Assembly (NCBI GenBank): GCA_014905635.1
Contig: CM026547.1
Location: forward strand, 1,860,001 to 1,924,000
Reading direction: 5' to 3'
Source of the DNA: Scenedesmus sp. PABB004
Taxonomy: Eukaryota
DNA length: 64,000 nucleotides
A program made the position numbers and the translations under genes. The notes under the pieces were generated by a model. The model saw only the letters and a program-made list of their open reading frames with translations. It had not been told where the DNA came from and made no database searches. Of this stretch, positions 19,101 to 52,701 are shown piece after piece. How positions within the stretch are numbered: position 1 is the stretch's first letter; every line of letters begins with the position of its first letter.

Positions 19101-19832
19101 GCGTCGCGCCGCGCGGCGCTGCTCAGCTACGAGGGCGCGGAGGTCATGGCGGAGCTGGTGGAGCACGACGGCGCCGCGCAGCCAGGCGCCGCCGGCGGCG
19201 GTGCGCGCCGCCGGCCAGCGCGCGCAGCATGGCGCCGCGGGGCGGCGGCCCCCGCTGTGCCCCCACGCCGCGCCGCCGCCGCCGCCCGTGCCGCGCCGCC
19301 GCCGCGCGCAGCCGAGCGCAAGAGCCGGCGCGCGCGCAAGAACCGGCAGCCGCTGCGCGTGTCGTGCGGCGACACGCTCGCGGCGCTGCGCCTGCGCGTG
19401 TACGAGGCGCTCGGCGTGCACCCGCGCAACCAGCGCATCTTCCTGCGCGGCGCCGTGCTGGGCGGCGACGAGGCCGCGACGCTCGCGGCCCTCGAGGTTT
19501 ACCCCGACGACGAGCTGCGCGTGGTCAACACGCGCGAGGTGGACAACGACGACGTGTCGAGCCTCTTTGACGGCGTCGCGGGCGCGCGCAAGGGTGCGGC
19601 CGCGGCGCGCCGGCCGGCGCGGCACGGCGCGCCCGCGGCGGCCGCGCGCGGCGCGCTCACGTGCCTGCGCCCGCGCCCGCGCCGCGCAGGGAAGCGGCGC
19701 GAGGTGGAGACGGGGTTCCGGGACACCGCGCTCACGTCGGCGCCCGCGGCGGCGGCGCCAAAGCAGGAGGAGGAGGAGGAGGAGGGCCCGTTGCCGAAGC
19801 AGGACGAGGAGGGCGCAGCGGCGGCGGAGTGA
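12945..19832 (+). CDS. UBP26: Ubiquitin-specific protease 26 / USP48-like (USP domain, DUSP-like repeats, C-terminal ubiquitin-like domain)
   Basis: DNPECFC N-terminal motif; Cys box GLRNLGNTCYVNAALQ; QQDGQEF; His box HKGSSASHGHY; WWRFDD; LLCPHHRL DUSP-like segments; C-terminal UBL ending in ETGFRDTAL. Confidence 0.9.
16045..16105. repeat. (CT)n microsatellite inside a UBP26 intron
   Basis: About 30 CT units with one CA interruption, just upstream of the intron acceptor. Confidence 0.95.
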
Positions 19833-20325
19833 GGCCGGCGGGCGGGCGACCGTGCGGCTGCGGCTGCAGTCGGGCATAGCAGTTGCGCGCGGGCGAGGCT
19901 GGCGGGCCGCTCGCGGAGAGTTGGCGGCGCCCCGCGGCAAAGCTGGTGGGCAGGCTGGCCGGCGAGAGCCGACAGCTGCTGCTGACCCGCCGACGCGCCG
20001 GGGCGCACGCGCGTGGCGGTTCGGGGCGTTGGCGCCGGCCCCGCGCCTGCGGCGGCCGTGGTAAGGCCCCTGGGGCGCGGTCAATCGCCCCCGCGCGCGC
20101 TTTCGCTGTGTGCCCGCCGCCCGCCCCTTGCGCCCGGCCAGGCGTTGCAAATTGCAAGCTCGAGCACCCGCGGTGACGCGCGCGGCGTGGCGACGCGGCG
20201 CGGAGGAGCGGCGTTTCAAGGGCCCAGCTGTCGGCGGCTCCCCGGCTCGCGCCGGGGCCGCCCCGCCGGCGCGCCAGCGGCGATGCCGTTGCGCAGGATG
20301 GCCGCCGTCGCTGGGAGACGCCTCC
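19827..20325 (+). repeat. Inverted repeat 1, left arm (UBP26 stop codon plus 3' flank)
   Basis: Reverse complement of 22967-23466, with only scattered mismatches or small indels. Confidence 0.95.
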
Positions 20326-21908
20326 CTGAAGGCGGTCGGCGTTTCAAGAGCTCGTGTTACCACGGCCGGCGGCCAGCCCGCGGAGCGTCCCCTGGGCATG
20401 AGCTGTTGCAACACAGCAGCAGCGGCACGCTGCTGGTGGGATTGGGATGCACCGCCCGTTCCTTCACCACACCCACCGGGCTCAGCGCGCCGCGGCCGAG
20501 GCGGCGCCGTTCTTTGTGTTGCCCCCGGCGAGCGCGTCGTGCGGGGACGCACTTAATGAGCACCGCCCGGCGGTGAGATGCAGGCCACGCCCCGGGGTGA
20601 GGACAGCCGGCGGTCAGCGCGTTGCCGGCGCTCGCTCGCGGGCCCCCCAAGGTCGAATCAGCAGCCGCGGAACCCCCAAAGGTCAGATCGGTGGCGGTAC
20701 GGTTAGGTGTACAGAGCGAAATAAACGCGTGCAGGGCCCCCCCCCGTGCGCGGCTGCGTGTTGCAGCAGTCGGCCGCCGCCGGGCGGCGCCCCGCCCGCG
20801 TGAATGGGGCGCACGCGGGGCGCGTGTGCCACCGGCGTCGCTGGAGCGGCGGCGGAGCGACCAACAACCGACAACCCAACGACCCAAGGGCATCCAGAGA
20901 GCTCCCCTCCCCGTCCATGTGTGCGTCGTCCATCCTGCGGTCAGGAGCGTCGCCGTCAGCCGTGGTCGGCGAGCACGGCCTAGTTTAGTAGTCTGGGTGA
21001 GGGGCGTCCTTCGCAGCGCGCCGGCGCACGCCGCGCGCCGCCGCACGGGGGCGGCGCGCGGCGCGGCGGTCCACCCGTGCAGCGCGCAGCTGCAGGTCAG
21101 GGTCGGGCGCGACCGTCAAGGGTCAGGCCGGGGCGGCCGCGCGCGGGGCAGGGGGCATCGCGGCGCCCGGGCCCGCGGCGGCCGCCGGCGCGCAGGGCTC
21201 GGCCCAAAAACAGGCATGCATTAGCATCATCAGCGACGGCAGCGTGCGCGCCAGCTCATCAGCTGCGGTGGCGGCAGTGAAGGAGGAGGGCGGAGCCGCG
21301 CCGAGGCGGGGCCCGCCCCGGGTGCAGCAGGCGTGCCATCGAGCCACCACCAAGGCCCGCGCGGGCGACAGTGCGGTGTGGTGTGTGGCTGCCTCGGCGG
21401 CGCGCGCGCCCAGCGGCGCGCCGAGCCGAGCCAGGGAAGAGGATGCAGGTCCCGCAGCGCGCCGCCGCAAAGCAAAGGGGCGGCCAGCCACGCGCACGGG
21501 CGGGGCGCGCGCTGACGCCCTGAAATGCTGCGCACACGACACGACACGCACCAAGAGCCAAGGCCTAGGGCAGGTGCCTGCGGCACCGCAAAGGGCCGCG
21601 GGCCTGCAAATACGTGTAGCAGGCTCGTCGCTCCGCAGCGCGCGCGGCGCGGGCGGCGGCGGCGCGGGCGCGCCAGCCGCCCCCGTCGCTCCCCTCCCCG
21701 CGCCGGCTAGCAGGTTGGCAGAAATGCGTCAGGTCAGAGTCGTCGCGCAAAACTGGCGGCGCGCAACACACCTCCTGTGTTTGCGCGGCCGCGGTCACGC
21801 GCTGCGGTAAGGTAGTGGTGGTACAACAGACCCCTCCCCCCTCCAGCCCCGTCAGCAAGGCCTGCTGCGCTCTCGCTCCGTCAAGCCCTTGCGCCGCGGG
21901 GCGCGCAG

Positions 21909-22661
21909 CTACCGCGCCTCCAGCGCCGTCAGCCACGCGCGCGCCGCCTGCAGCTCGGCGGCGCTGGCCGGCGCGAGGCCCGGCAGCGCGCGCGCCGCGG
22001 CACGGGCGGGGCCGGCGCAGCCGCCGCGCGGCGGCGCGGCGCCGCCCTCCGCGGGCGGCGGCAGCACCGAGCACTTGCGCGGCGCGCCGGGCACCTGCCC
22101 GCCCGCGCTCGCCAGCGCGGGCGTGGCCGCCGGCGGTCGCGGAGGCGGCTGCGGCTGCGGCTGCGGGTCGGGCTCGCACAGGCCGCTGCCCGCCGCCGCG
22201 AACATGACGGCCCAGCTGCGCCTGCTGCTGCTGCTGGCCGGCGGCGCGCGCTCCTCGGCGCCGCCTGCGGCCCAGGCGGGCGGCGGCGGGCCCACGCGGC
22301 TGCCGCTGTCCGCGAGCAGCGCCGACGCGAGGCTGCGCGCGACGCCGCGCTGCGCCGGCGGCGCCTCGCGCGCGCCCGCGGCGGGCGCGCCCGCGCCCGC
22401 CAGCAGCATGACGGCGCCGTCGTGCGTGGGCGAGCGCAGGAGCAGCTCGCTGGGCGGGCGCGCCTGGCCCGGGTGGGCGCGCGGGGGCGGGGAGAGGCAG
22501 GGCGAGGCGCCCAGGTCGCCGCTGTCGCCGCCGCAGTCGCCCACGTCCTGCTCGGGCGCCTCGCAGACGCCTCCGCAGGGGCTGGCGGCGCCGGGGGCGC
22601 CGGGCCAGAGCAGCCGGCGCTTGGCGCCCAGGCCCGCGATGCCCGCGCCGGAGCGCTTCAT
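21909..22661 (-). CDS. Hypothetical low-complexity protein enclosed by inverted repeat 1 (possibly truncated)
   Basis: ATG-initiated ORF MKRSGAGIAGLGAKRRLLWPG...ELQAARAWLTALEAR with coding-like codon usage and no recognisable domain. Confidence 0.45.
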   Translation of the reverse strand: MKRSGAGIAGLGAKRRLLWPGAPGAASPCGGVCEAPEQDVGDCGGDSGDLGASPCLSPPPRAHPGQARPPSELLLRSPTHDGAVMLLAGAGAPAAGAREAPPAQRGVARSLASALLADSGSRVGPPPPAWAAGGAEERAPPASSSSRRSWAVMFAAAGSGLCEPDPQPQPQPPPRPPAATPALASAGGQVPGAPRKCSVLPPPAEGGAAPPRGGCAGPARAAARALPGLAPASAAELQAARAWLTALEAR

Positions 22662-22966
22662 GCCGCCCCGACGCGCAGCGCCGACGCGAGGGAGGCCTGC
22701 TAATGCGATGCGCCGGCTCTCCGCGGCGGCGTGGCGCCTGTGGCGGCCGGGGCGGGCGGGCGCGCGACAGCGCCGCGCTCGGCGACACGCGCACGGGCCC
22801 GAGCAGGATGGCCCACCGCGCACAGCCGCCCCCGCGCGCGCCGCACCTGCTCGGTGAGTGCGCATGGGCTATCCGCAGCGTCACAGCAGCGATCGGAGCG
22901 TCGAGCGGCTGGTCTGGCGCAGCGTTGGTGTGCAGGTCGCGCCGCGGATCGCCTAGCTGGCGGCCT

Positions 22967-23466
22967 GGAGGCATCTCCCAGCGACGGCGGCCATCCTGCG
23001 CAACGGCATCGCCGCTGGCGCGCCGGCGGGGCGGCCCCGGCGCGAGCCGGGGAGCCGCCGACAGCTGGGCCCTTGAAACGCCGCTCCTCCGCGCCGCGTC
23101 GCCACGCCGCGCGCGTCACCGCGGGTGCTCGAGCTTGCAATTTGCAACGCCTGGCCGGGCGCACGGGGCGGGCGGAGCCGCGCAGCGAAAGCGCGCGCGG
23201 GGGCGATTGACCGCGCCCCAGGGGCCTTACCACGGCCGCCGCAGGCGCGGGGCCGGCGCCAACGCCCCGGACCGCCACGCGCGTGCGCCCCGGCGCGTCG
23301 GCGGGTCAGCAGCAGCTGTCGGCTCTCGCCGGCCAGCCTGCCGCCACCAGCGTTGCCGCGGGGCGCCGCCAACTCTCCGCGAGCGGCCCGCCAGCCTCGC
23401 CCGCGCGCAACTGCTACGCCCGACTGCAGCCGCAGCCGCACGGTCGCCCGCCCGCCCGCCTCACTC
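22967..23466 (-). repeat. Inverted repeat 1, right arm
   Basis: Reverse complement of 19827-20325. Confidence 0.95.
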
Positions 23467-23511
23467 GGCGTGTCGGAGTGAGCGAGAGCCTCGCCGCCGC
23501 GCGGCCCGAGG

Positions 23512-34152: not shown

Positions 34153-34612
34153 CCTCCCCCGCGCCCTGGCTCCTTGTGGTCGACCGCTGGCCCCGCTACG
34201 CCAGCATGACGCGCCAGACCAGGCTCAGCTCTGATCGCAGGAGCAGGGCAGGGCACTCTCCTGGCGGTGGTTGGGCGCGCCGCTGATCAAGCTGCCCTGC
34301 TGCGTGCAAAACGGCCGCGGGCGGTCGCAGGGCTCGCGTGGACATGGCCCAGCGCCGGCCTCGGGCGACGGTGAACCCCGGCACGCGGCGCGCCGTGACG
34401 ACGGCGCCGCCGTCGCGGCGGCGGCGGTCCGTGGAAAACCGCGCTCGTCTGCTGCTGCTGCACGCTATGGCGGCAGCCCGCACGCCCTGCTTCCCAATTG
34501 TGCGTGCAGCGTCACGGGCGTCGAGAGCCGCCAGGAGAGACCTCCGCGCGCCGCCGCACCGCGCCGCCGCACCGCGCCACCGCACGCCCGCTGCTCGCGC
34601 CAGCCGTCCCCG

Positions 34613-35314
34613 ATGGCGCTACAGTCGGCGCTCTACGCGCCCTACGACATCAGCGGCCAAACCGCGCTCGTCACAGGCGCGCAGCGGCGCGCACGCGGCG
34701 GCGGCGGCGCACGTGGCAGCGGCGCACGCAGCGGCGGAGCACGCAGCGGCGGAGCACGCAGCGACAGCGGCGGCAGCGGCACAGAGCTCGCAGCGCCACG
34801 CGCTGCTGCCGCCGCCGCCGCCGCGCAGGCGCGAGCAGCGGCTTTGGCGAGGCGCTCGCGTGGCGGCTGGCGGAGGCAGGCGCCAAGGTCATCATCGCCG
34901 CGCGCCGCCGCGACCGGCTCGACGCGCTCGCCGCCGCGCTGCGCGGCGCCTACCCCGGCGCAGCGGTGCACGTGGTACAGCTCGACATGCGTGACCTGCC
35001 CGCCGTCGCCGCGCTGCCGGGCGAGCTGCCAGTCGAGTTCCAGCAGGCACGGCGCTGCGCACGCTCGCCCACGCGCTGGCCCACGCGCTGGCCCACGCGC
35101 TGGCCCCGCCGCCGCGCCGTCGCGGCGCCAGGTGGACATCCTGGTGAACAACGCAGGCCTCGCGCTTGGCGTCTCAGACGTGCACAGCCACGACATCGAG
35201 GCGCGCTGCGCGGGCGGCGGCGCCGCGCCGCGGCGCGGCGGGGGCGCCGGGCAGCGAGCGGCGGCCGGGCGCGAGCGCGAGCGCCGCGCGCGCTGCTTGG
35301 TTGAGTGGCCCATG

Positions 35315-35348
<34 letters not shown>

Positions 35349-36046
35349 TGCCGCCGCCGCCGCCGCCGCGCCGGCGCCGTGCAGGACGCGGTGACGATGA
35401 TGGAGACCAACTACCTCAGCGTCGTGTGCCTCACGCGGGCGCTCGTTGGCGGCATGGTGTCGCGGGGGCGGGGGCACGTGGTCAACATCTCCTCCATTGC
35501 CGGCCGCGAGGCCTACGCCGGCGGCGCGCTCTACTGCGCGTCCAAGCACGCGCTGGTGCGGCACGCGGCGCGGCCGACCCGCCGCACGCGCGCCGGCCCC
35601 GCGCGCACGGGGCCGCGCTCACCTGCCACTGCGCGCGTGCAGGACGCGTTCACGACGGCGACGCGGCACGACCTCGTGGGCACGCCGGTCCGCGTGACGA
35701 GCGTCGCGCCGGGCGCGGCCAAGACCGAGTTCAGCGTCGTGCGGTTCAAGGGCGACGTCGCCGCCGCGGACGCGGTCTACGCCGGCTTTGACCCCCTGAC
35801 CGCGCCCGACATCGCCGACAACGTGATGTACGCGCTCACGCGGTGCGTGGCCGCGCGGCGGCGGGCGGGCGGGCGGGCGCGCTCGGGGCTGACGCCGCGG
35901 CGGGGGCGCGGGGCGGCGACAGACCCTGACGCCGCCGCGGGGGCGCGGGCCTGGCCAGGCCGCCGCACGTGCAGGTCGCGGACATGCTGGTCTACGCCAA
36001 CAACCAATCCAGCGCAAAGGGGATCGCGCGCGTCAAGGCGGGCTAG
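34613..36046 (+). CDS. Short-chain dehydrogenase/reductase, NADP-dependent 3-hydroxy-acid dehydrogenase (YdfG-like)
   Basis: TGASSGFG Rossmann motif, [28 protein letters not shown] and catalytic YCASK; 5 introns. Confidence 0.9.
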
Positions 36047-36364
36047 CGCGTCAACGCGGGGTGCGCGGCGCGGAGGGCGGCGCGCAGCAGCGGAGCGGGC
36101 ACTCGGCGCCGGTGACACGCGCATCTTGCGGAAAATGCGCGACCGGCGCACCCTCATGGCTGATCGTGCCTGCCAGAGCTGACTGGACCCTGAGGCGGTC
36201 CCGGCATCAGCCTGGGCTCCAGCCTCGCTACGGCCCGCGCGCCCGCCCACATCGCTCCCGTTGCGGCCGCCAATCTCAAGGTAATCTCTCGATCGCCACA
36301 CGAGCACGCCGCGCCCCTGCGCGCCGAACGCCCACCGGTGCACTCGCGACTCTCGCGCTCCGCA

Positions 36365-37956
36365 ATGGCCGCGCGTGCGGCTCTCGCCGTCGCCGTGGCC
36401 TGTCTGGCCGCCTCTCTGGCGCCCGGCGCTCACGCGCAGCTCGGCGTCCTTGGCTGCGTGGCGGCCCGGCCGCCGGCCGCCGTGCAGCAGCTGAGCCTGG
36501 TGCCGAACAACGCTGGAACCTCGATACGCGTGAACTGGAGGGAGCCGTCGGGATCGGTGAGGGACGGCGCGGTCAAGGCGGCGCACCGCGCAGCACGGGC
36601 GGGCGCGGGCGGCTCACCGGCGGCGCGCTGCTCCCGTCCCCGCACCCGCGCGCCCGACAGTGCGTGAGCTACTTCACCGTCAGCGTCACCGAGGTGGCCG
36701 CGGGCCGCTCGTTCGGCGGGCTACCGTCCCAGACGCGCGCGTACTCGCTCGTCGTCAACGGCCTGCGCCCAGGCATCGAGTACATGTGCGACGCGCGGCG
36801 CAGCACAGCGCGGCGCGGCGCGGCGCGGCCAGCAGGCGCGGCCAGCAGGCGCGGCCAGCAGGCAGGCGCGCGACGCGCGGCGCTGGGAGTGGGGGCGCGC
36901 GAGGGGTCGCCGCCGCCCGCGCGCCACCCCCGCAGGGTCTCCGTGACGGCGGTGAACGAGCGCGGCGCGGGCCCCTCAGAGCGCCAAACCATCAAGCCCA
37001 TGGCCGTCAACAAGTGCAGCCGCGTGCCGCCGGCGGTCAAGAACCTCGTCGCGCAGCCGGTCGACGGCAAGACGCTGGAGGTGTCGTGGGCGCCGGGGGA
37101 GCGCGAGTGTTACGAGGCGGCGCAGGTCCTGGCCTACGAGGCGCGCACCAACACGCTCGTCCACCGCGCGTCGGTGGCGGACGTGTATGACCGCATCCCC
37201 GGCCTCAGTGAGCGCGGCGCCGCTGCCGCGGCGGCGCCGCGGCGCCCAGCCGCCAGGCCAGCGCCGCCGCCAGCGGGCGGCCGCCTCCGCCGGCCGCATC
37301 GCTGACCGCCCCCCGCGCCCGCGCCCGCGGCAGAGCCCCGCACGGCATATCGCATCGAGGTTACCCCGCAGGTGGGCAACAGGGTGGGCCCCGCCTCGTC
37401 CGTGAGCGCCTCCACGGTCTGCTCGGGCGAGGCGCCCGGCAGCGCTACGGGCATGGCCGTGCAGGCGACCAGCCCGCCCGGCACCCTGGTGCTCACGGCG
37501 ACCGGCGTCAGCAACGACGCATGCGTCGACCTCTGGGAGGTGCGCCCGCTGCGCCGCGGCCGACCGAATGCCGCGGCCGACCCGCACGCCGCGGCCGACC
37601 CGCACGCCGCAGCCGACCCCCACGCCGCGGCCGACGCGCCCGCCGCGGCCGACCCGCACGCCGCGGCCGACGCGCCCGCCGCGGCCGACGCGCCCGCCGC
37701 GCCGCTGGCCGCCCGTCGCCGCCGCCCGCAGGTGCAGGTTCGCGGCAACGGCCGCGGCCCGACGTTCAAGGTGGAGCCCAGCGACGCCGCAACCGGCGCA
37801 GTGCGCTTTGTGTTCAGCGGGGCGGCCAACCAGCAATACACGTTTGCTGCGACCGCCATCGGCTACGGCGGCGCGCGCGGCATCACCAGCAACATCGGCC
37901 CCGTGCGCGCCGACGGCCGCACCGTGATGGAGGCCGCGCCCCGCGCCGCGCCCTAG
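36365..37956 (+). CDS. Secreted fibronectin type III repeat protein
   Basis: Signal-peptide-like MAARAALAVAVACLAASLAPGAHA. FN3 patterns TSIRVNWREP...VNGLRPGIEY|VSVTAVNERGAGPS and TLEVSWAP...IPGL..RHIASRL/YRIEVTP; third degenerate repeat ends in YTFAATAIGYGG. Confidence 0.75.
37570..37700. repeat. 18-bp minisatellite (gccgcggccgacccgcac, about 7 copies) in an intron of the FN3 gene
   Basis: Directly visible tandem units between the gtgcgc donor and the cgcag acceptor. Confidence 0.85.
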
Positions 37957-38070
37957 GGCGCGCCGCGCGGGTTGACCGCACTTGATCGGCAGCAGGTCGG
38001 AGCAGTGCCGGTATCGGTCTGGCGTGATGGAAAAGAGCCGGGGGGTAAAAGTCGCTGGCTGTGCGTGCCG

Positions 38071-38586
38071 GCCGCGCGGCGCGCGCCCGCCGCCGTTGGT
38101 CCCACGCGGCGCCGCCGAGGCGCCCCCCGCGCCCGGCGGGGCTGGGACGGCCGCGCCCGTGCGCGGCACGCGAGCCGCGCGGGCTGTCGGCGGCTCGCTG
38201 GCGCTCGGGCGCGCGCGCGGCACGGCGGCAGCAGGCGGGCGGGCGGAAGTGCCGCGGAGCGGGTGACCAAGACCGCGCTCCCGCTTCCGCGCGCAGCCTG
38301 CGCGCTGCCGTGCGCTCGCGGCCGCCGCCAGCCGCATTCTCCCGACCCGCGCCGCACCTGCGAGCTCGCCAGGCGGCCGTGCGACACCCGCGCCAGGCGG
38401 CCCTCACGCCGAGAGCCAGAAGTACCGCGCAGGGAGCGCTGCATTCGGTTGCGGCCCAGCGACCTCTAGCCAAAACGTGGGAGCGCCTGAATTTGTGCGG
38501 GCCGGCCCCCATCTCTGCGCGGCTGCGCTGGGAGGCCTCGCATCTCTGGACGAGCATCGCCCGGTCATGCCCGCGGCCCTGGGCCC
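38071..38586 (+). repeat. Inverted repeat 2, left arm (upstream region plus first 20 nt of the EF-hand gene CDS)
   Basis: Reverse complement of 40741-41256 with scattered mismatches. Confidence 0.95.
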
Positions 38587-40099
38587 GCTGCAGTGGCCGC
38601 CGAGCCACCGGCAGCTCTTCGCCGCAGATGTCGGCGCGAACGTCAGCTGGCTGGAGCCGCTCTGGGGCTGGGGCGGCGGCGGCGGCAAGGACGGCGCCAG
38701 CAAGCCCGCGCGCCCCCGGCCGCGTCGCAGCGCCAGCGAGCCGGCGCACTCGCCCGACAGCGCCACGGACGCCGCGCTGAGCGGCGCGCCGGCGGCGCCG
38801 ACGCCGACGCTGGCGGAGCGCGCGGCGGCGCTCGAGAGGCGCAACCGGTGCGGCGGCGGCGCCGCCGCCTGCGCGGCAGGCCTCGGGCTCGCGCTGCGGC
38901 CTTGCGCGGCCGCACCGCCGCGCCGACGCCGCCGCCCGCCGCGGCCGCAGGGCGCTCGAGAAGCGCGTCCGGGCGCTGGCCGAGGAGAACGACGCGCTGC
39001 GCCACGACATGGCGGCCTGCGGGCCGCCGCGCGCGATTGACGCCGCCGACGCGCGCGCCGCACCCGGCCGAGCGGGCGGCTGTGGCGGTGAAGCTCCGCG
39101 GGAGCAGCGCGCCGCTCCCTGCCTCGTGCTGGACATCGTCGCCAGCAGCCAGAAGCAGCTGCAGCGCGCCGGGCCGCCGCCGCCGCGCGCGGGCGCGGCG
39201 GAGCGCCCCGACGCGGCCGCGCGCGCCTCGCCCGAGCGCGGCGCGAGCTGCGAGGCGGCGCCGGGCGCCGCCGCGGCCGCCCGCTCGGCGGCCGCGGCGG
39301 AGGCGGCGGCGGCGGCGGCGACCATCGCGTCGCTGCAGCGCGAGGTGTGCCAGCTGGGCCGCGTGCGCCGCCTGCTGGAGAGCGACGCCGCCGAGCTGAC
39401 CGCCGCGCTGCGCGAGAGCGAGCGCGCGCGGCGCGAGGCGGCCGCGCGCTACGCGTTTGTGGTGCTCGACAGCGACGGCGACGGCTACGTGAGCGCGGGC
39501 CAGGCGGCGGGCTACGAGCTGTTTGCTCACTACGCCCCGTGCGTGCTCGCGGCCGCGTTTGGGCGGTGGCGCTGGGCCAGCGGCTTCCCCGGCTACCTGA
39601 CCATGGAAGACTTCCTCAGGCACGGCGCGAGGCAGGGGGGGGGGGCGGTGGAGGGGGCAGCGGGGCCCCGCGCGCGCGTGCCGCGCCCCGCACGCGCGCC
39701 GCTCGCCGCCGACGCGCCGCCGCCGCGGCGCCGCGGGGTCCCCGCAGGTTTGTGGAGTTTGCGGAGGACCGCAGCACGCGCGCGGCGCAGCGGTTCTGGT
39801 TCTCCGTGCTCGACGCCGACGGCGACGGCCGGCTGGGCTGGAACGACTGCCGCGAGGCGTACGACGCGGTGGACGCGCGCGGCGCGGCGTTTGTGGTGCC
39901 CTTTGCCGACCTCATGGCGCAGCTGGCCGACATGGTCCCGCGGCGCCCCGGCGCGCCGCCCGCCGCCGGCTTCACCGCCGCGGAGCTCTGGGCGAGCAAG
40001 CTCGGCGCGGGCGTGCTGGGGCTGCTGACCAACCACCGCAACATGCTGCTGCAGCGCTCCACGGCCGAGTGGAGCCGCGGCGCCGAGTTCCCGCTCTGA
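38567..40099 (+). CDS. Coiled-coil plus EF-hand protein resembling the C-terminal part of PP2A B'' regulatory subunits
   Basis: EF-hand loops LDSDGDGYVS and LDADGDGRLG; LTMEDFLR|FVEFAEDRSTRAAQRFWFSVLD resembles the B'' EED...YWF..LD.DGDG motif; 2 introns. Confidence 0.7.
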
Positions 40100-40715
40100 G
40101 CCCGCCGCCGCGCCGAGCGCGGCGCGGCGGCGGACGCGGCGCGTCGTCGTTGGCGTTTGATTGTTGTTGTTGCCTGCCGCACGCGCAGCGGCGCCGGTCG
40201 TGTGGTTGCACACAACCGCGCCGGCGCCCAGCGCTGCACCCGTGCGCGTCAAGTCGCCCAGCACTGCACCCGTTGGCCGCGCGTCGGCGCAGCGACGCGC
40301 GCCTCCCCTAACGCTCAGACCCCCTCCTGACGCCGTGCGCACGGCCGCTGAGCGCGGCCGGCCGGCGTCGCATGGCGTGCGGCGCGCACGACGACCGCGC
40401 GGCGCGCGGCCCGACGCCGTCCTCGCGTCCACCTAGCCATGGGGGCAAGCCGGTTGTGGTCGTCGGTGTACAACGTTAGCGTGTTTGTACAAACAAGAAA
40501 AGGACGCCTGATCGACGCCTCGAGTTTTGTGGATCGACGTTTCATCAGTGGCGGCCGGGGGCGGCCGCCGCAGCGGGGGGGGGGGGGGGCTGTCTCAATC
40601 GGGCAGGCGCCCGAGCGCAGACGCGTCGGCCAAGTAACCGAGTGTCGCACGGCGCCGTCGCTCCTGCCAAGACGGATTGCAAATCGCCCTGCGCAGTACT
40701 TCTGGCTCTCGGCGG

Positions 40716-40740
40716 CCTGAACCTTAAACCCTAAACCCTA
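40716..40740 (-). repeat. Short interstitial telomeric tract (TAGGG TTTAGGG TTTAAGG TTCAGG on the minus strand)
   Basis: cctgaaccttaaaccctaaacccta, an AT-rich island of plant-type TTTAGGG units directly abutting the inverted repeat 2 right arm. Confidence 0.75.
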
Positions 40741-41256
40741 GGGCCCAGGGCCGCAAGCATGACCGGGCGATGCTCGGCCAGAGATGCGAGGCCTCCCAGC
40801 GCAGCCGCGCCGAGATGGGGGCCGGCCCGCACAAATTCAGGCGCTCCCACGTTTTGGCTAGCGATCGCTGGGCCGCAACCGAATGCAGCGCTCCCTGCGC
40901 GGTACTTCTGGCTCTCGGCGTGAGGGCCGCCTGGCGTGGGTGTCGCACGGCCGCCTGGCGCGCTCGCAGGTGCGGCGCGGGTCGGGAGAATGCGGCTGGC
41001 GGCGGCCGCGAGCGCACGGCAGCGCGCAGGCTGCGCGCGGCAGCGGGAGCGCGGTCTTGGTCACCCGCTCCGCAGCACTTCCGCCCGACCGCCTGCTGCC
41101 GCCGTGCCGCGCGCGCGCCCGAGCGCCAGCGAGCCGCCGACAGCCCGCGCGGCTCGCGTGCCGCGCACGGGCGCGGCCGTCCCAGCCCCGCCGGGCGCGG
41201 GGGGCGCCTCGGCGCCGCCGCGTGGGACCAACGGCGGCGGGCGCGCGCCGCGCGGC
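40741..41256 (-). repeat. Inverted repeat 2, right arm (lies in the DEG8 3' flank)
   Basis: Reverse complement of 38071-38586. Confidence 0.95.
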
Positions 41257-41291
41257 GCCCCATCCCTGCTGCGCCCGCGCCCGCCGGCGCG

Positions 41292-43396
41292 TCACTTCTC
41301 CGCCTGCAGCGTGACGTTGACGTCCAGCCGCTGCTGCCCGCCGCCGTCGGCCGTGCGCAGCACGCCGAGGCGCGCCGTCACGCCGATGGCGTAGCTCTCC
41401 AGTGCGTTGGCCAGGTCACCCGCATTGAGCAGGGGCCGGCCGTCGATGCTGACGACGACGTCCCCCGCGATGACGCCGCCCAGGCCGCGCCGCGTCGGCA
41501 GCAGCCCCGCCGCCGCCGCCGCGCCGCCCGGCTCCACGCCCGCGAGCAGCGCGCCGCTGCTGACCTTGAGCTTCTGCGCGACGCTGTCGGACGAGAGCTG
41601 CGGCGGCGGGGCCGGGCGCGGCCGCGGCGGGCTGAGCGCGGCGCGCCGCGCCGAGCGCGGCGCGCCGAGCACGGGGCGCGCGCGCGCGCGCGCCGCGTGC
41701 CTGCACGCCCAGGCTCGGCCGCGCGACGCGTCCGGTGGCGATGAGCTGCGGCACCACGCGCGCGACGACGCCGACGGGGATGGCAAAGCCCACGCCCGCG
41801 CTGACGCCGGTGGGCGTGAAGATGGCGGTGTTGATCCCGATGAGCCGCCCCGCGCTGTCCAGCAGGGGGCCGCCGCTGTTGCCCGGGTTGATCGCCGCGT
41901 CGACCTGGATGCCGCCGGGGATGGTCGACCCGAGCTGGCTGACGATGTCGCGGTTGAGCCCGCTGATCACGCCTGCGCGGCGCGGTGTCGCGCGCGGCGC
42001 CGGCGGCCGGCGGCCGCGGTCGCGCGCGGCGGCGTCAGCCGCCGGGGCCGTGGCGCGCGGGGGCGCGGCGCGGGCCCGCGGGCGCACGGCGGTGGCGCAC
42101 GCCTGCCTGTGGTCAGCGTCTGCGAGAAGCCAAACGGGTTGCCGATCGCCACGCACAGCTGGCCGACCCTCAAGTCGCTGCTACCCAGCGTCAGCGGCCG
42201 CAGCTGGTCCCTTGGGGCGCTGATCTTCAGGACGGCCAGGTCTGCGCGCACGGCGGGCGGCGGCGGCGGCGTCGGGCGGCGGCGGCGTGGGGCAGCGGCG
42301 GCGGCAGCGCGCCAGCGGCGGCGGCGCGCGGTCCAGCGGCGGCGGCGCGCGGCGCGCGGGGCGCGCAGCATGCAGCTGCGACCGCGCGCGCGCGCGCGCG
42401 CTCACCGCGGGCGCGGTCCGCGCCCACCAGCACGGCGTCAAACGTCGTCTGCGCGCCGCCGGGCGGCTGCAGCGTCACGAGCGCGACGCGCTTGCCGATC
42501 GCGGGGCTGGGCTGGGCGCTGCTGAGCCCCGGCGCCGCGCCAAACTTGGCGAGCGCGCTGCCGAGGACGTGGTAGTTGGTCACCACCTGGCGGGAGGGAG
42601 GGGCGGCGGAGGGCGCGCGGGCAGAGGGCACGCGGGCTGAGCACGGCAGGCGCGCTGAGCACGGCAGGCGGCGCGGCGGGCGGCGCGGTGGGCGGCGCGG
42701 CGGGCGGCACGACGGGCCGCCCCGCCCCCGCGTGCCGCGTGCCGCGGGCGCGCGCACGTGGCCGGCGTCGTCCCACACGATGCCGGTGCCGTTGCCCTCG
42801 GGCACGTCCGCCTCGGCCAGCGCGCCCGCGCGGCCCACGAGGGTGACGTCAAAGACGTTTGCCACGCTCGGGGCGGCCGACTCGAAAATCCTGGCGCGGG
42901 CGGCACGCGGCGTTGGGGGAGAGAGGGGCGTCACCCGGGGTGAACAAGCGCCGACCGGCGCGCGGCGTTGCGTGCGCGCGCGGGCCTGCTGCGGCGCCGG
43001 GCGCGGCGCGCGGCGAGCGGGGGCGCACCGTATGATGCTGGCCTCGCGGTCAGACAGCGGGCCGGCGGGCGCGATCGCGGGCGTCGCCTCCTCCAGCGTG
43101 ACCGCCGCCGCGCCGCGCTCGCCGCCGGGCACCAGGCGCGCCGCCGCGAGCGCTGCCGCGGCGGCGGTGGCGCCCGCGAGCAGCGCGCGCCGCCGTGGCG
43201 CCGCCGCAGCCGCTGCCGCTCCCGCCGGCCCTGCCTGGTCGGTGACCGACGCCTCGCGGTCTGCCGAGGCCACTGCTCTGGCGCCGCCCCGGACACGCCG
43301 CTGCGGCCCGCGGCGCGGCGCTGCGCCGCTGTTGCTGCAGCTGCTGCGCGCTGGCTGCTGGCGCGCGCCCGGCGCCTGCTGGCGCGCGATCATCAT
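41292..43396 (-). CDS. DEG8: Thylakoid-lumen Deg/HtrA serine protease with PDZ domain
   Basis: Bipartite transit peptide with twin-Arg [17 protein letters not shown]...[23 protein letters not shown] and [10 protein letters not shown] catalytic-triad motifs; C-terminal [12 protein letters not shown]. Confidence 0.88.
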
Positions 43397-50546: not shown

Positions 50547-51006
50547 CGCCGGTCACGCAGACGCGGCTGGATGGTCAGGCAAGGGGGATTGGGGCATGGG
50601 GCGCGGCTGCCCGCGGCGGGGCGGGCGCTCTAGCGAGGAGGCGAGGTGGGTGATGATCGCAGCGAGGGAGGAGCGCCTGCGGGCGGCGTGAGAGGCGCAG
50701 CGGCCCGGCGGTGTGAGAGGCGTCGTCGCTCGGGCGCGTGGGCGAGCTGCGGGGCCGGGGCGGGCCTCCGCAGCGCGGGCCGGGGCAGTGAGGCCGCTGC
50801 CGAGCCTCCGCCCCGCCCAGAGGCCTGCCCGCGACGCTGCCACGCCAAGCCGCGTCCATAGGGCGCCCGCGCTTCCAGCGCGGCTGGCACAGCGCCGCGT
50901 GCCCCGCTCGCAGCGCTGGCGCGTGGTGCTGCCATGCCGGGCGCCCCCCGCGCGCGCCGGGGCCCACCTGCCGCGCCCGGCCGGGTGCAGGCGCACGCGG
51001 ATTCGG

Positions 51007-51294
51007 GCGTCTATGTGGGCTGGAGTCTAAGCCGATCGGCGCGGGCTCGGCGGCGAGGCGGTCGTCCTGACGCGTGGCGCTAGGCCCCGTGGCGCGCAGC
51101 TGCACCGCCTGCTCCGGGCTCGCTCGCGACGCCGTGCTCTGGCGCTCAGCGCGGCGCGCCGGGGTTTCACTGCAGCAGGGCCGCAACACGAGCGCGGGGT
51201 TGGGTTCAGCTGCTGCCTCGGCTCCGGTGCCGCCGCACGAGACCCCCGCGCGGCGGGCGCGGCAGGAGGGGGCAGCCCGCGCGCTGCTGGCGCC
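51007..51294 (+). repeat. Inverted repeat 3, left arm
   Basis: Reverse complement of 51923-52208; one substitution and a 2-bp indel noticed. Confidence 0.95.
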
Positions 51295-51922
51295 AGCGCG
51301 CCGCCGCGCCGCAGCGCCGCCGCCGCCGCGCGACCGAGCGCCCCCGCCCGCCACGCCGCGCCGCTCGCGTGGGCAACGGACCCAGGTGCTCACGGCATCA
51401 GGGAATCGCTCAACGTGAGGCGCCGGGGCCGGCGGGCGCCGCCGCGGTGGCGGTGCCCTGGCGGTGCTGGGCGTGCTGCGGCCGCCGTCCGCGTCTTGCC
51501 CTGCCCGGGCGCTGGGCTGGCCAGGCAGGAGTGGCTCCGGCGACCCGGCACGGCGCGGCCTCGGCGCGGGTGCAGCGCGTGCGGCAGGTGTTCGACGACG
51601 CGCAGCGGCGTCAGCTGGGGGCCGCACCGCACGCAGCCGGCGCGCACGGGCACCGCAAAGCAGGCGCGGGTGGAGCTCGCGCTCGCCCGCAGCGCGGTGC
51701 GCGCGGCGGCGGCGGCGGATCGCGAGGGTGCGCTGCGGGCTGAGCTGACGTGCTGTGCGCGCGGACGCCCATGCGCTGCGCGAGATGGCGGAGCGCGAGG
51801 CTGGCGGTGGCGCTGGGTGCCGCGCAGGCACCCGCATCGTCGCAGACTGCCAGCACAGCCGCAGCTGCGCGGGGTGCGTCGAGCAGTTTGGCAAGGTTTG
51901 AGGGGCGCCGACAGGCAGCCTG

Positions 51923-52208
51923 GGCGCCAGCAGCGCGCGGGCTGCCCTCCTGCCGCGCCCGCCGCGCGGGGGTCTCGTGCGGCGGCACCGGAGCCGAGGC
52001 AGCAGCTGAACCCAACCCCGCGCTCGTGTTGCGGCCCTGCTGCAGTGAAACCCCGGCGCGCCGCGCTGAGCGCCAGAGCACGGCGTCGCGAGCGAGCCCG
52101 GAGCAGGCGGTGCAGCTGCGCGCCACGGGGCCTAGCGCCACCCGTCAGGACGACCGCCTCGCCGCCGAGCCCGCGCCGATCGGCTTAGACTCCAGCCCAC
52201 ATAGACGC
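51923..52208 (-). repeat. Inverted repeat 3, right arm
   Basis: Reverse complement of 51007-51294. Confidence 0.95.
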
Positions 52209-52701
52209 TCGCGTCCGCCTGCGCCGCGCGCGCCGGCGGCAGGGCGCGGCGGGGGGCTTTGCGCGCCCGCACAACGCGAGCGCCCCCGCTCCCTTCAACG
52301 CCCCCACCGCCGCTCGCTCGCTTGTCGCCTCCAGCCCACCGTGCCAGCGATACCTGTGCGTCCGGCCGACAGCGAGTGTGTGGCTGGCGCTGCCGTCGTC
52401 GTGCAGCGGCGCGCTTGGGGCAGCCCAGCGCCGCGTGACAGGCGCGTCGCTCGCGGAGCAGCGCGGGCGTTGCGTTGCGGCCTGCTCGAGGCCTGGCGGC
52501 GGCCCGCGCCCGCCGCTGCTGCGCCGCGCGGCGCTCCGCCCGTCCGGCGCTACGGGGCCCGCCGCCGCAGCAGCAGCTGCTGGCAGCGGCAGCAGAGGCT
52601 GTGGGGCGCGGCGGGGCCCGCCCGGTGCTACGGGCCCCGCCGACGCCGTCGCGGCAGGTGCTGGCGCCAGCGGCGGCGGAGCTGCGGGCGCGCTGCGCGC
52701 G

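What the first reader, a model, noticed from the sequence alone, without database searches (positions are those of the whole stretch)
38071..41256. Single-gene inversion flanked by a 516-bp inverted duplication (staggered-break signature)
Seen: 38071-38586 and 40741-41256 are reverse complements and bracket the EF-hand gene. The left copy is that gene's upstream region plus its first 20 coding nt. The right copy starts 35 bp after the DEG8 stop, reads in the DEG8 sense, and ends in a dead ATG fragment. Inference: the ancestral order was DEG8 -> spacer -> EF-hand on one strand, and the EF-hand gene was flipped by staggered breaks that duplicated the shared spacer. Both the DEG8 3' end and the EF-hand promoter would then survive. 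Staggered-break inversions leaving inverted duplications are established in Drosophila; I know of no description at single-gene scale in algae.
Basis: partly seen in the sequence, partly recalled or inferred. Interest (0 to 1): 0.75.

Follow-up and report, generated by a model that had tools for sequence, protein, structure and literature searches.

The report
DNA-repair scar around one algal gene
Two opposite-facing copies of a 516-base stretch flank one gene in a green alga; they are the scar of a repaired chromosome break, a known kind of rearrangement, and whether the gene between them was actually flipped is likely but unproven.

Summary
In detail: 38071-38586 and 40741-41256 are 516-nt inverted copies with 12 substitutions and no gaps, and these are the only two full copies in the 40-Mb genome. 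So this is a double-strand-break repair scar, not a transposon end or an assembly palindrome. It is not isolated: the window holds two more such pairs, and 7 lie within 150 kb of satellite/retroelement blocks (putative centromeres) against 0 in 364 kb elsewhere (p 0.016; 0.07 without this window). The claimed inversion is unproven. An inverted copy-and-paste with no flip (the commonest human 'inversion' class, <1 kb within 5 kb) gives the same sequence, and no relative or spanning read was found. A sister pair's junctions favour a true inversion; two interleaved pairs on C3 cannot both be one-step inversions. Odds: inversion with duplication 0.55, copy-and-paste 0.35. It is a known class, and the scan noted the same class in a red alga (unchecked notes).

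The parts
38071..38586 (+). Left arm: upstream region of the EF-hand gene plus its first 20 coding nt
   Evidence: non-coding on the codon track; bridged into the CDS by a 343-nt contig of run X1
40741..41256 (-). Right arm: inverted copy, 97.7% identical, with a dead ATG fragment, in the 3' flank of the Deg protease gene
38567..40099 (+). EF-hand protein gene, exons 38567-38847, 38951-39619, 39748-40099 (433 aa; start and GC donor of intron 2 inferred)
40720..40740 (-). 21-nt telomere-type filler abutting the right arm; the G-rich strand runs 5'->3' away from the arm end
   Evidence: same repeat at contig ends; only 2 internal 15-mers on C1; 11 seeds in 881 kb
40687..40719 (-). 28-nt patch (27/28) copied from arm positions 38407-38434, preceded by 5 nt that also occur just upstream of its source
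   Evidence: the 18-mer occurs 3 times in the genome, all here; p 0.0003, floor of 3000 nulls
40642..40653 (-). Second, 12-nt patch matching arm 38376-38387 (weaker; its segment was not significant alone)
41292..41597 (-). Last exon and stop of the Deg-type protease gene (PDZ domain); stop 35 nt from the right arm
37733..37956 (+). Last exon and stop of the upstream gene (fibronectin-III label only from the precomputed Pfam of P0001); stop 114 nt before the left arm
   Evidence: own Pfam scan found nothing
19824..23469 (.). Sister pair 19824-20325 / 22967-23469 (97.2%); the upstream gene's stop lies inside the left arm; two 12-nt templated patches at 20337-20368
50964..52256 (.). Sister pair 50964-51294 / 51923-52256 (94.9%) between divergent GYF-domain and DRMBL/ligase-domain genes; no gene between the arms

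Best explanation
The EF-hand gene once lay downstream of the Deg protease gene on the minus strand, separated by one spacer of about 530 nt. Repair of chromosome breaks (a staggered break plus a blunt one, or an equivalent two-step template switch) flipped the 2.2-kb gene and copied the spacer. One copy stayed as the protease gene's 3' flank and the other went with the gene as its promoter. The free 3' end at the inner right junction was extended before joining: about three telomere units, then short pieces recopied from the arm. Such events survive in a compact genome mainly when the copied piece is a spacer, and they accumulate beside the centromere. The copies are now decaying scars. Shown: the copies, their uniqueness, the filler, the local cluster. 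Inferred: the flip, the break geometry, telomerase as source of the repeat, the survival filter, and the centromere assignment.
For: Two-copy unique arms. Filler of telomere repeat (chance of abutting one of 4 junctions about 0.0005, of 28 junctions 0.003) plus a locally templated 28-mer. The arm spans almost exactly protease stop to EF-hand start. The sister pair at 19824 has an old outer-left junction (stop codon inside the arm) and a new inner-left junction (two patches, 0 of 3000 nulls as good), the pattern expected of a true inversion. Five of six spacer-type arms show no coding signal and the sixth little, against 12.5% of random 500-nt windows. Arm sizes of 330-870 nt fit Drosophila breakpoint duplications (median 321 bp, 46 bp to 1.9 kb; 12 of 18 one-sided; PMC1885836 passages).
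Against: No outgroup or read shows the ancestral order. Both outer junctions of this pair lack filler. No canonical TGTAA signal lies in the arm in the protease sense. The 1845-kb pair has weak patches at both ends of its right copy (p 0.04, 0.015), which leans to copy-and-paste. The two interleaved C3 pairs cannot both be one-step inversions. The sister pair's old junction rests on 9 nt, and its outer fold-back is p 0.03 among 20 tests. Telomere-like tracts also occur in apparent introns (6 in 19 kb of C2), so the repeat may be captured rather than made by telomerase.
Confidence: 0.55

Rival explanations
The EF-hand gene never moved.
For: Needs one break only and gives the same sequence and the same filler position. 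In humans 54% of 229 validated 'inversion' sites were inverted duplications, nearly all <1 kb inserted within 5 kb (PMC4617611 passage), the size regime of all 7 pairs here. Nearby direct, partly coding duplications exist (C1:1945558, 1953802). The C3 interleaved pairs need at least one such event or a later flip.
Against: A random donor would often be coding, yet the inverted arms are spacers. The sister pair at 19824 shows the inversion pattern. No filler or target duplication was found at the outer right junction.
Confidence: 0.35
2. A live invertible segment: recombination between the arms flips the gene, so both orientations coexist. A later flip would also convert either origin into the other's junction pattern.
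For: 516 nt at 97.7% with a longest identical run of 126 nt could recombine. Both orientations would keep a promoter and ATG copy in front of the gene (sequence).
Against: The 12 differences are spread evenly, with no homogenised tract. No recombinase or specific site was seen among the Pfam hits for 72 window ORFs.
Confidence: 0.04
3. Termini of a transposon (Pack-MULE/foldback type) that captured the gene.
For: Long inverted arms around one gene.
Against: Only two full copies in the genome. Each of 12 of 13 local arms tested has no further copy in 851 kb sampled; the exception lies in the retroelement block. No target-site duplication is visible at the outer ends. The arm ends inside a host reading frame.
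Confidence: 0.03
4. Assembly artefact (chimeric or fold-back reads).
For: No read spanning both arms could be laid.
Against: The arms differ by 12 substitutions and no indels; the junction carries a structured filler; the contig is telomere-to-telomere; a contig of an independent run bridges the left inner junction and matches the left arm at 6 internal diagnostic sites.
Confidence: 0.03

Closest known systems
Inversions with inverted breakpoint duplications, staggered-break model (Ranz et al. 2007, PMC1885836; passages read)
   Same: Unique, non-repetitive DNA duplicated in inverted orientation at both ends; one-sided duplication; size in range; decaying copy.
   Different: There the inversions are interspecies and polarised with outgroups. 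Here the segment is one 2.2-kb gene, polarity is unproven, and the junction has telomere and templated filler ('filler' has 0 occurrences in that text).
Proximal inverted duplications ('Inverted Dup') of the 1000 Genomes SV map (PMC4617611; passages) and dupINV/INVdup/iDUP classes (PMC5338099; passages)
   Same: A copy <1 kb within 5 kb in opposite orientation, not retrotransposed; dupINV has the same topology as the inversion reading.
   Different: Human classes are assigned against a reference allele; no second allele was available here.
Interstitial telomeric sequences inserted at repaired breaks (PMC2246262, abstract and outline; PMC8537989, listing only)
   Same: A short telomere-repeat tract at a break junction, G-rich strand leaving the 3' end.
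   Different: Vertebrate cases are shown against empty orthologous sites. Here no empty site was found, the tract is 21 nt with one variant unit, and no second genomic source for the adjacent filler was found.
Chlorophyte retroelement centromeres (PMC8226300; passages and section 12) and rearrangement-rich pericentromeres (Arabidopsis, PMC11096106; passages)
   Same: One LINE cluster per chromosome; Copia as in Chromochloris; rearrangements abundant in and near centromeres.
   Different: Here the block adds a 172-bp satellite; CENH3 binding and Zepp membership were not tested; the events are kb-scale in gene-dense DNA 50-140 kb away.
Dualen LINE long target-site duplications in Chlamydomonas (PMC9977147; passages)
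   Same: An algal precedent for nicks hundreds of bases apart (median 900 bp duplications) and for de novo telomere addition at breaks.
   Different: Those are direct repeats around a LINE; no LINE sequence was found at this pair's junctions.

Membership tests
Staggered-break inversion with inverted duplication | Inverted copies at both ends of a segment | tested here: met
Staggered-break inversion with inverted duplication | Duplicated DNA is otherwise unique, not a repeat family | tested here: met
Staggered-break inversion with inverted duplication | Segment inverted relative to an outgroup that has one copy | tested here: inconclusive
   No informative relative or read:
Staggered-break inversion with inverted duplication | New junctions split between the copies (inner of one, outer of the other) | tested here: inconclusive
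   Inner right is new; outer junctions p 0.44 and 0.12; the sister pair at 19824 fits
Staggered-break inversion with inverted duplication | Break geometry (paired nicks filled in) rather than template switch | not testable with these tools
   The end products are the same
Proximal inverted duplication without inversion | Copy <1 kb, within 5 kb, opposite strand, not retrotransposed | tested here: met
Proximal inverted duplication without inversion | Intervening DNA collinear with the ancestral allele | tested here: inconclusive
   No ancestral allele found
Interstitial telomeric insertion at a break | The genome's own telomere unit exactly at a junction, more than chance | tested here: met
Interstitial telomeric insertion at a break | Empty orthologous site; telomerase-RNA-derived flank | tested here: inconclusive
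   No ortholog; the flank 18-mer occurs only here; the 17-mer matches elsewhere only as 7 one-mismatch telomere-type tracts
Transposon terminal inverted repeats | Multi-copy family with target-site duplication | tested here: not met
Pericentromeric location | Beside the chromosome's satellite and retroelement cluster | tested here: met
   172-bp array at C1:1986619-2012272; both C1 RT hits and a Copia lie there; 85 kb from the right arm
Pericentromeric location | CENH3 binding or crossover suppression | not testable with these tools
   No chromatin or cross data
Mating-type rearranged domain | MID (RWP-RK) gene in the region | tested here: not met
   0 of 4 RWP-RK hits are on C1; a plus-type allele is not excluded

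The most novel reading that the evidence does not exclude
Gene-dense flanks of centromeres in this alga form a belt where single genes are repeatedly flipped by a repair route that duplicates the whole intergenic spacer, splits promoter and terminator roles between the copies, and sometimes lets telomerase extend the broken end before rejoining. Gene orientation there would then turn over within the species without gene loss, and spacer-sized inverted pairs would mark centromere flanks in compact algal genomes.
Probability: 0.25. Interest if true: 0.55.

Novelty: new member of a known kind. Interest (0 to 1): 0.33.

Why it matters
As a single locus it is an ordinary rearrangement scar, useful as a clean example of end-joining with telomere and templated filler. 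If the cluster holds genome-wide, it would make two questions directly testable in strains of one species: how small inversions arise in green algae, where they are known to break synteny (PMC8226300 passage), and whether low-recombination centromere flanks let them fix. It also warns that 'inverted duplication means inversion' is unsafe without an outgroup, and that the public gene model here probably fuses three genes across the left arm.

Tried and rejected
Synteny: no EF-hand relative confirmed in metagenome contigs (346 pattern matches, 0 confirmed); 0 matches for a 21-nt 3'-flank pattern; locus tags could not be paired, since the protease search gave 4 hits and none from T. obliquus and the FN3 region gave 0 of 4972 candidates. 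Reads: 1 run listed, share 0.12, no RNA holder listed; laid on a one-arm stretch it gave no joints and no cover at either informative junction, so both-orientation and expression questions stay open. Non-coding RNA: 0 Rfam matches in 37800-41400. The filler as an older long duplicate: the alignment score (72) was below the null median (81). Filler from telomerase RNA or another locus: not found. LINE pieces at this pair's junctions: none. Poly(A)-signal polarity: TGTAA too rare to decide (97 in 851 kb). Fold-back test: 1 of 20 junctions at p<0.05. Mating-type locus: no RWP-RK on C1. The C10 satellite flanks were not sampled. Literature for this structure in green algae or near their centromeres: 1 irrelevant hit; 0; none relevant by title among 15 listed of 68; supplements were not read. 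Own-genome scan notes: none.

Full report
Observation. The arms are as described: 38071-38586 and 40741-41256, 516 nt, 12 substitutions, no gaps. A search of the 40-Mb own genome G000 gave 19 matches, of which 2 are full length and 17 are short GC-rich matches at 70-79% (the tool calls such counts lower bounds). The left arm runs 20 nt into a 433-aa three-exon model whose last exon is 61-72% identical to 8 other proteins, among them Tetradesmus obliquus EF-hand proteins that carry no FN3 or SDR domain. The host is therefore a Scenedesmaceae-like green alga (inference). The right arm ends 35 nt behind the stop of a trypsin+PDZ protease gene. Its ATG frame ends after 9 codons.

Reading off the inner end of the right arm on the minus strand, 21 nt of TTTAGGG-type repeat follow at once (40720-40740). 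This is the repeat at the ends of C1, C2 and C3; on the 4.85-Mb C1 the 15-mer occurs internally at only 2 places, one of them here. With 11 such seeds in 881 kb sampled, the chance of one abutting one of the four junctions is about 0.0005, or 0.003 over 28 junctions (the test was framed after seeing the tract). Next comes a 28-nt copy (27/28) of arm positions 38407-38434, whose 18-mer exists 3 times in the genome, all at this locus; 0 of 3000 random flanks scored as well. A weaker 12-nt patch follows; its segment was not significant alone. Locally templated patches at a junction are the mark of end-joining with synthesis (established knowledge, recalled for polymerase theta; templated and telomeric insertions at yeast breaks in PMC11724301, passages). 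Against telomerase as the source: similar tracts occur in what look like introns, 6 in 19 kb of C2.

The pair is one of a cluster. The window has two more pairs. I sampled 881 kb, about 2% of the genome. Spacer-type inverted pairs lie at C1:1845003, 1879824, 1898071 (this one), 1910964, 1927506 and C3:859403, 865200, with arms of 331-872 nt, 94-99% identity and 0.6-5.6 kb between them. All are 50-140 kb from a block of 172-bp satellite with LINE elements (on C1 also Copia). Both C1 reverse-transcriptase hits are in that block, which resembles described chlorophyte centromeres (PMC8226300, passages). Count: 7 in 456 kb within 150 kb of a block, 0 in 364 kb farther away, p 0.016; without the ascertained window 4 against 0, p 0.07. 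Rows dropped before this count: matches within or bounding the blocks, a whole-gene inverted duplication near the block (C1:2028072-2038572), one far from it (C1:2209620-2219598), and two old 81-82% matches on C4. An earlier count that kept the near whole-gene pair and added the far one gave p 0.03, or 0.11 without the window. All seven lie on one side of their block, and the centromeres of control contigs C2, C4 and C13 are unknown. The clustering is suggestive, not established.

Was the gene inverted? Two histories give this sequence. (a) Inversion with duplication: the new junctions are the outer left and inner right. (b) Inverted copy-and-paste into the protease 3' flank: the new junctions are the inner right and outer right. 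The inner left junction is old on both (coding continuity; a 343-nt contig of run X1 bridges it with 5 differences and matches the left arm at 6 internal diagnostic sites), and the inner right is new on both. The outer junctions show no filler (p 0.44, 0.12). No relative settled it. For (a): the sister pair at window 19824 keeps the upstream gene's stop inside its left arm and has two templated patches at that arm's inner end (0 of 3000 nulls), so one copy has one old and one new junction; and five of six arms tracked are non-coding against 12.5% of random windows, while two direct duplications are coding. For (b): 54% of 229 validated human 'inversion' sites were inverted duplications, nearly all under 1 kb and within 5 kb (PMC4617611, passage); the 1845-kb pair leans weakly that way; and the two C3 pairs interleave, so undoing either as an inversion turns the other into a direct repeat, and at least one needs a copy-and-paste or a later flip (inference). 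The 1927-kb pair is symmetric: an ATG at the outer end of each arm opens a flanking gene, and both histories rebuild an intact start. A later flip between arms would turn one pattern into the other. I put (a) at 0.55 and (b) at 0.35.

Comparison with what is known. Under (a) it works like the Drosophila cases, where 17 of 29 inversions carry inverted duplications of median 321 bp (PMC1885836, passages), and like human dupINV (PMC5338099, passages); membership is open because the outgroup test was inconclusive. Under (b) it is the common proximal inverted duplication. In Chlamydomonas, long nick spacing (Dualen, median 900 bp), end-joined inversions and telomere healing are reported (PMC9977147, passages), and small inversions are the usual intrachromosomal change. 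Rearrangements are abundant near Arabidopsis centromeres (PMC11096106, passages). My searches found no paper on this structure in green algae (open-access library only, supplements unread). Scan notes describe the same class three times in Cyanidioschyzon merolae (unchecked), so 'first in algae' should not be claimed.

Verdict. A real, young repair scar: arm divergence is 2.3%, against 1.5% for the one wild contig, so it may be polymorphic. It is of a known kind, with an unusually legible junction and a possible pericentromeric cluster. Interest 0.33; 0.55 if the belt and the telomerase step are confirmed (probability 0.25).

Noticed in passing
window 19824-20325 / 22967-23469: Second inverted pair; the stop of the upstream gene (UCH Pfam hits further upstream) sits in the arm, two 12-nt templated patches at the inner left junction, and a TGTAA signal of the convergent PPR gene lies 43 nt outside the right arm. 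Best local case for a true single-gene inversion.
   Followed up: yes
window 50964-51294 / 51923-52256: Third inverted pair between divergent genes; the 628 nt between the arms have no coding signal but read in part like a decayed coding fragment.
   Followed up: partly
L021:3506-6372 (G000:C1:1927506-1930372): 872-nt inverted pair whose outer ends each supply the ATG of a different flanking gene, so one gene appears to have gained a copied promoter and start codon in frame; a 9-nt AT-rich stretch is in the left copy only.
   Followed up: partly
G000:C1:1986619-2022767; C3:917794-952174; end of C31; C10:124-131 kb: 171/172-bp satellite arrays mixed with LINE elements (on C1 also Copia with 356-bp direct repeats); likely centromeres. 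The C1 unit matches the C10 array at only 83-88% and did not pick up the C3 or C31 arrays, so the satellites seem chromosome-specific.
   Followed up: partly
G000:C3:859403-867109 (L120, L105): Two interleaved inverted pairs (749 nt, 97.7%; 535 nt, 99.3%) joined by a short microhomology; they cannot both be one-step inversions.
   Followed up: partly
P0001 against window 34400-40099: The public 986-aa model fuses an SDR gene, the FN3-domain gene and the EF-hand gene across the left arm; the T. obliquus homologues stand alone, so it is probably an annotation artefact.
   Followed up: partly
L020:4190-9620 (G000:C1:1854-1860 kb): Two interleaved direct duplications (495 and 559 nt), a 203-bp tandem array and short tracts resembling the LINE 3' end; probably a transposon-derived block.
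   Followed up: no
window 38043; G000:C1:1854197, 1854216, 1858246: The 7-mer GGGTAAA occurs 10 times in 851 kb, 4 of them within 70 nt upstream of duplication junctions; post hoc and perhaps only two independent cases.
   Followed up: partly
L083-L084 (G000:C2:1248-1263 kb): Dense telomere-like tracts (16 nine-mers in 19 kb), apparently in the introns of one large gene, G-rich near donors and C-rich near acceptors.
   Followed up: no
G000:C1:2028072-2038572 and 2209620-2219598: Whole-gene inverted duplications; the first (a RING-like gene by eye) has a copy with an internal deletion.
   Followed up: partly
window 38463-38465 against the right arm: Two adjacent differences make a perfect 10-nt palindrome in the right arm, as a template-switch mutation would.
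   Followed up: no
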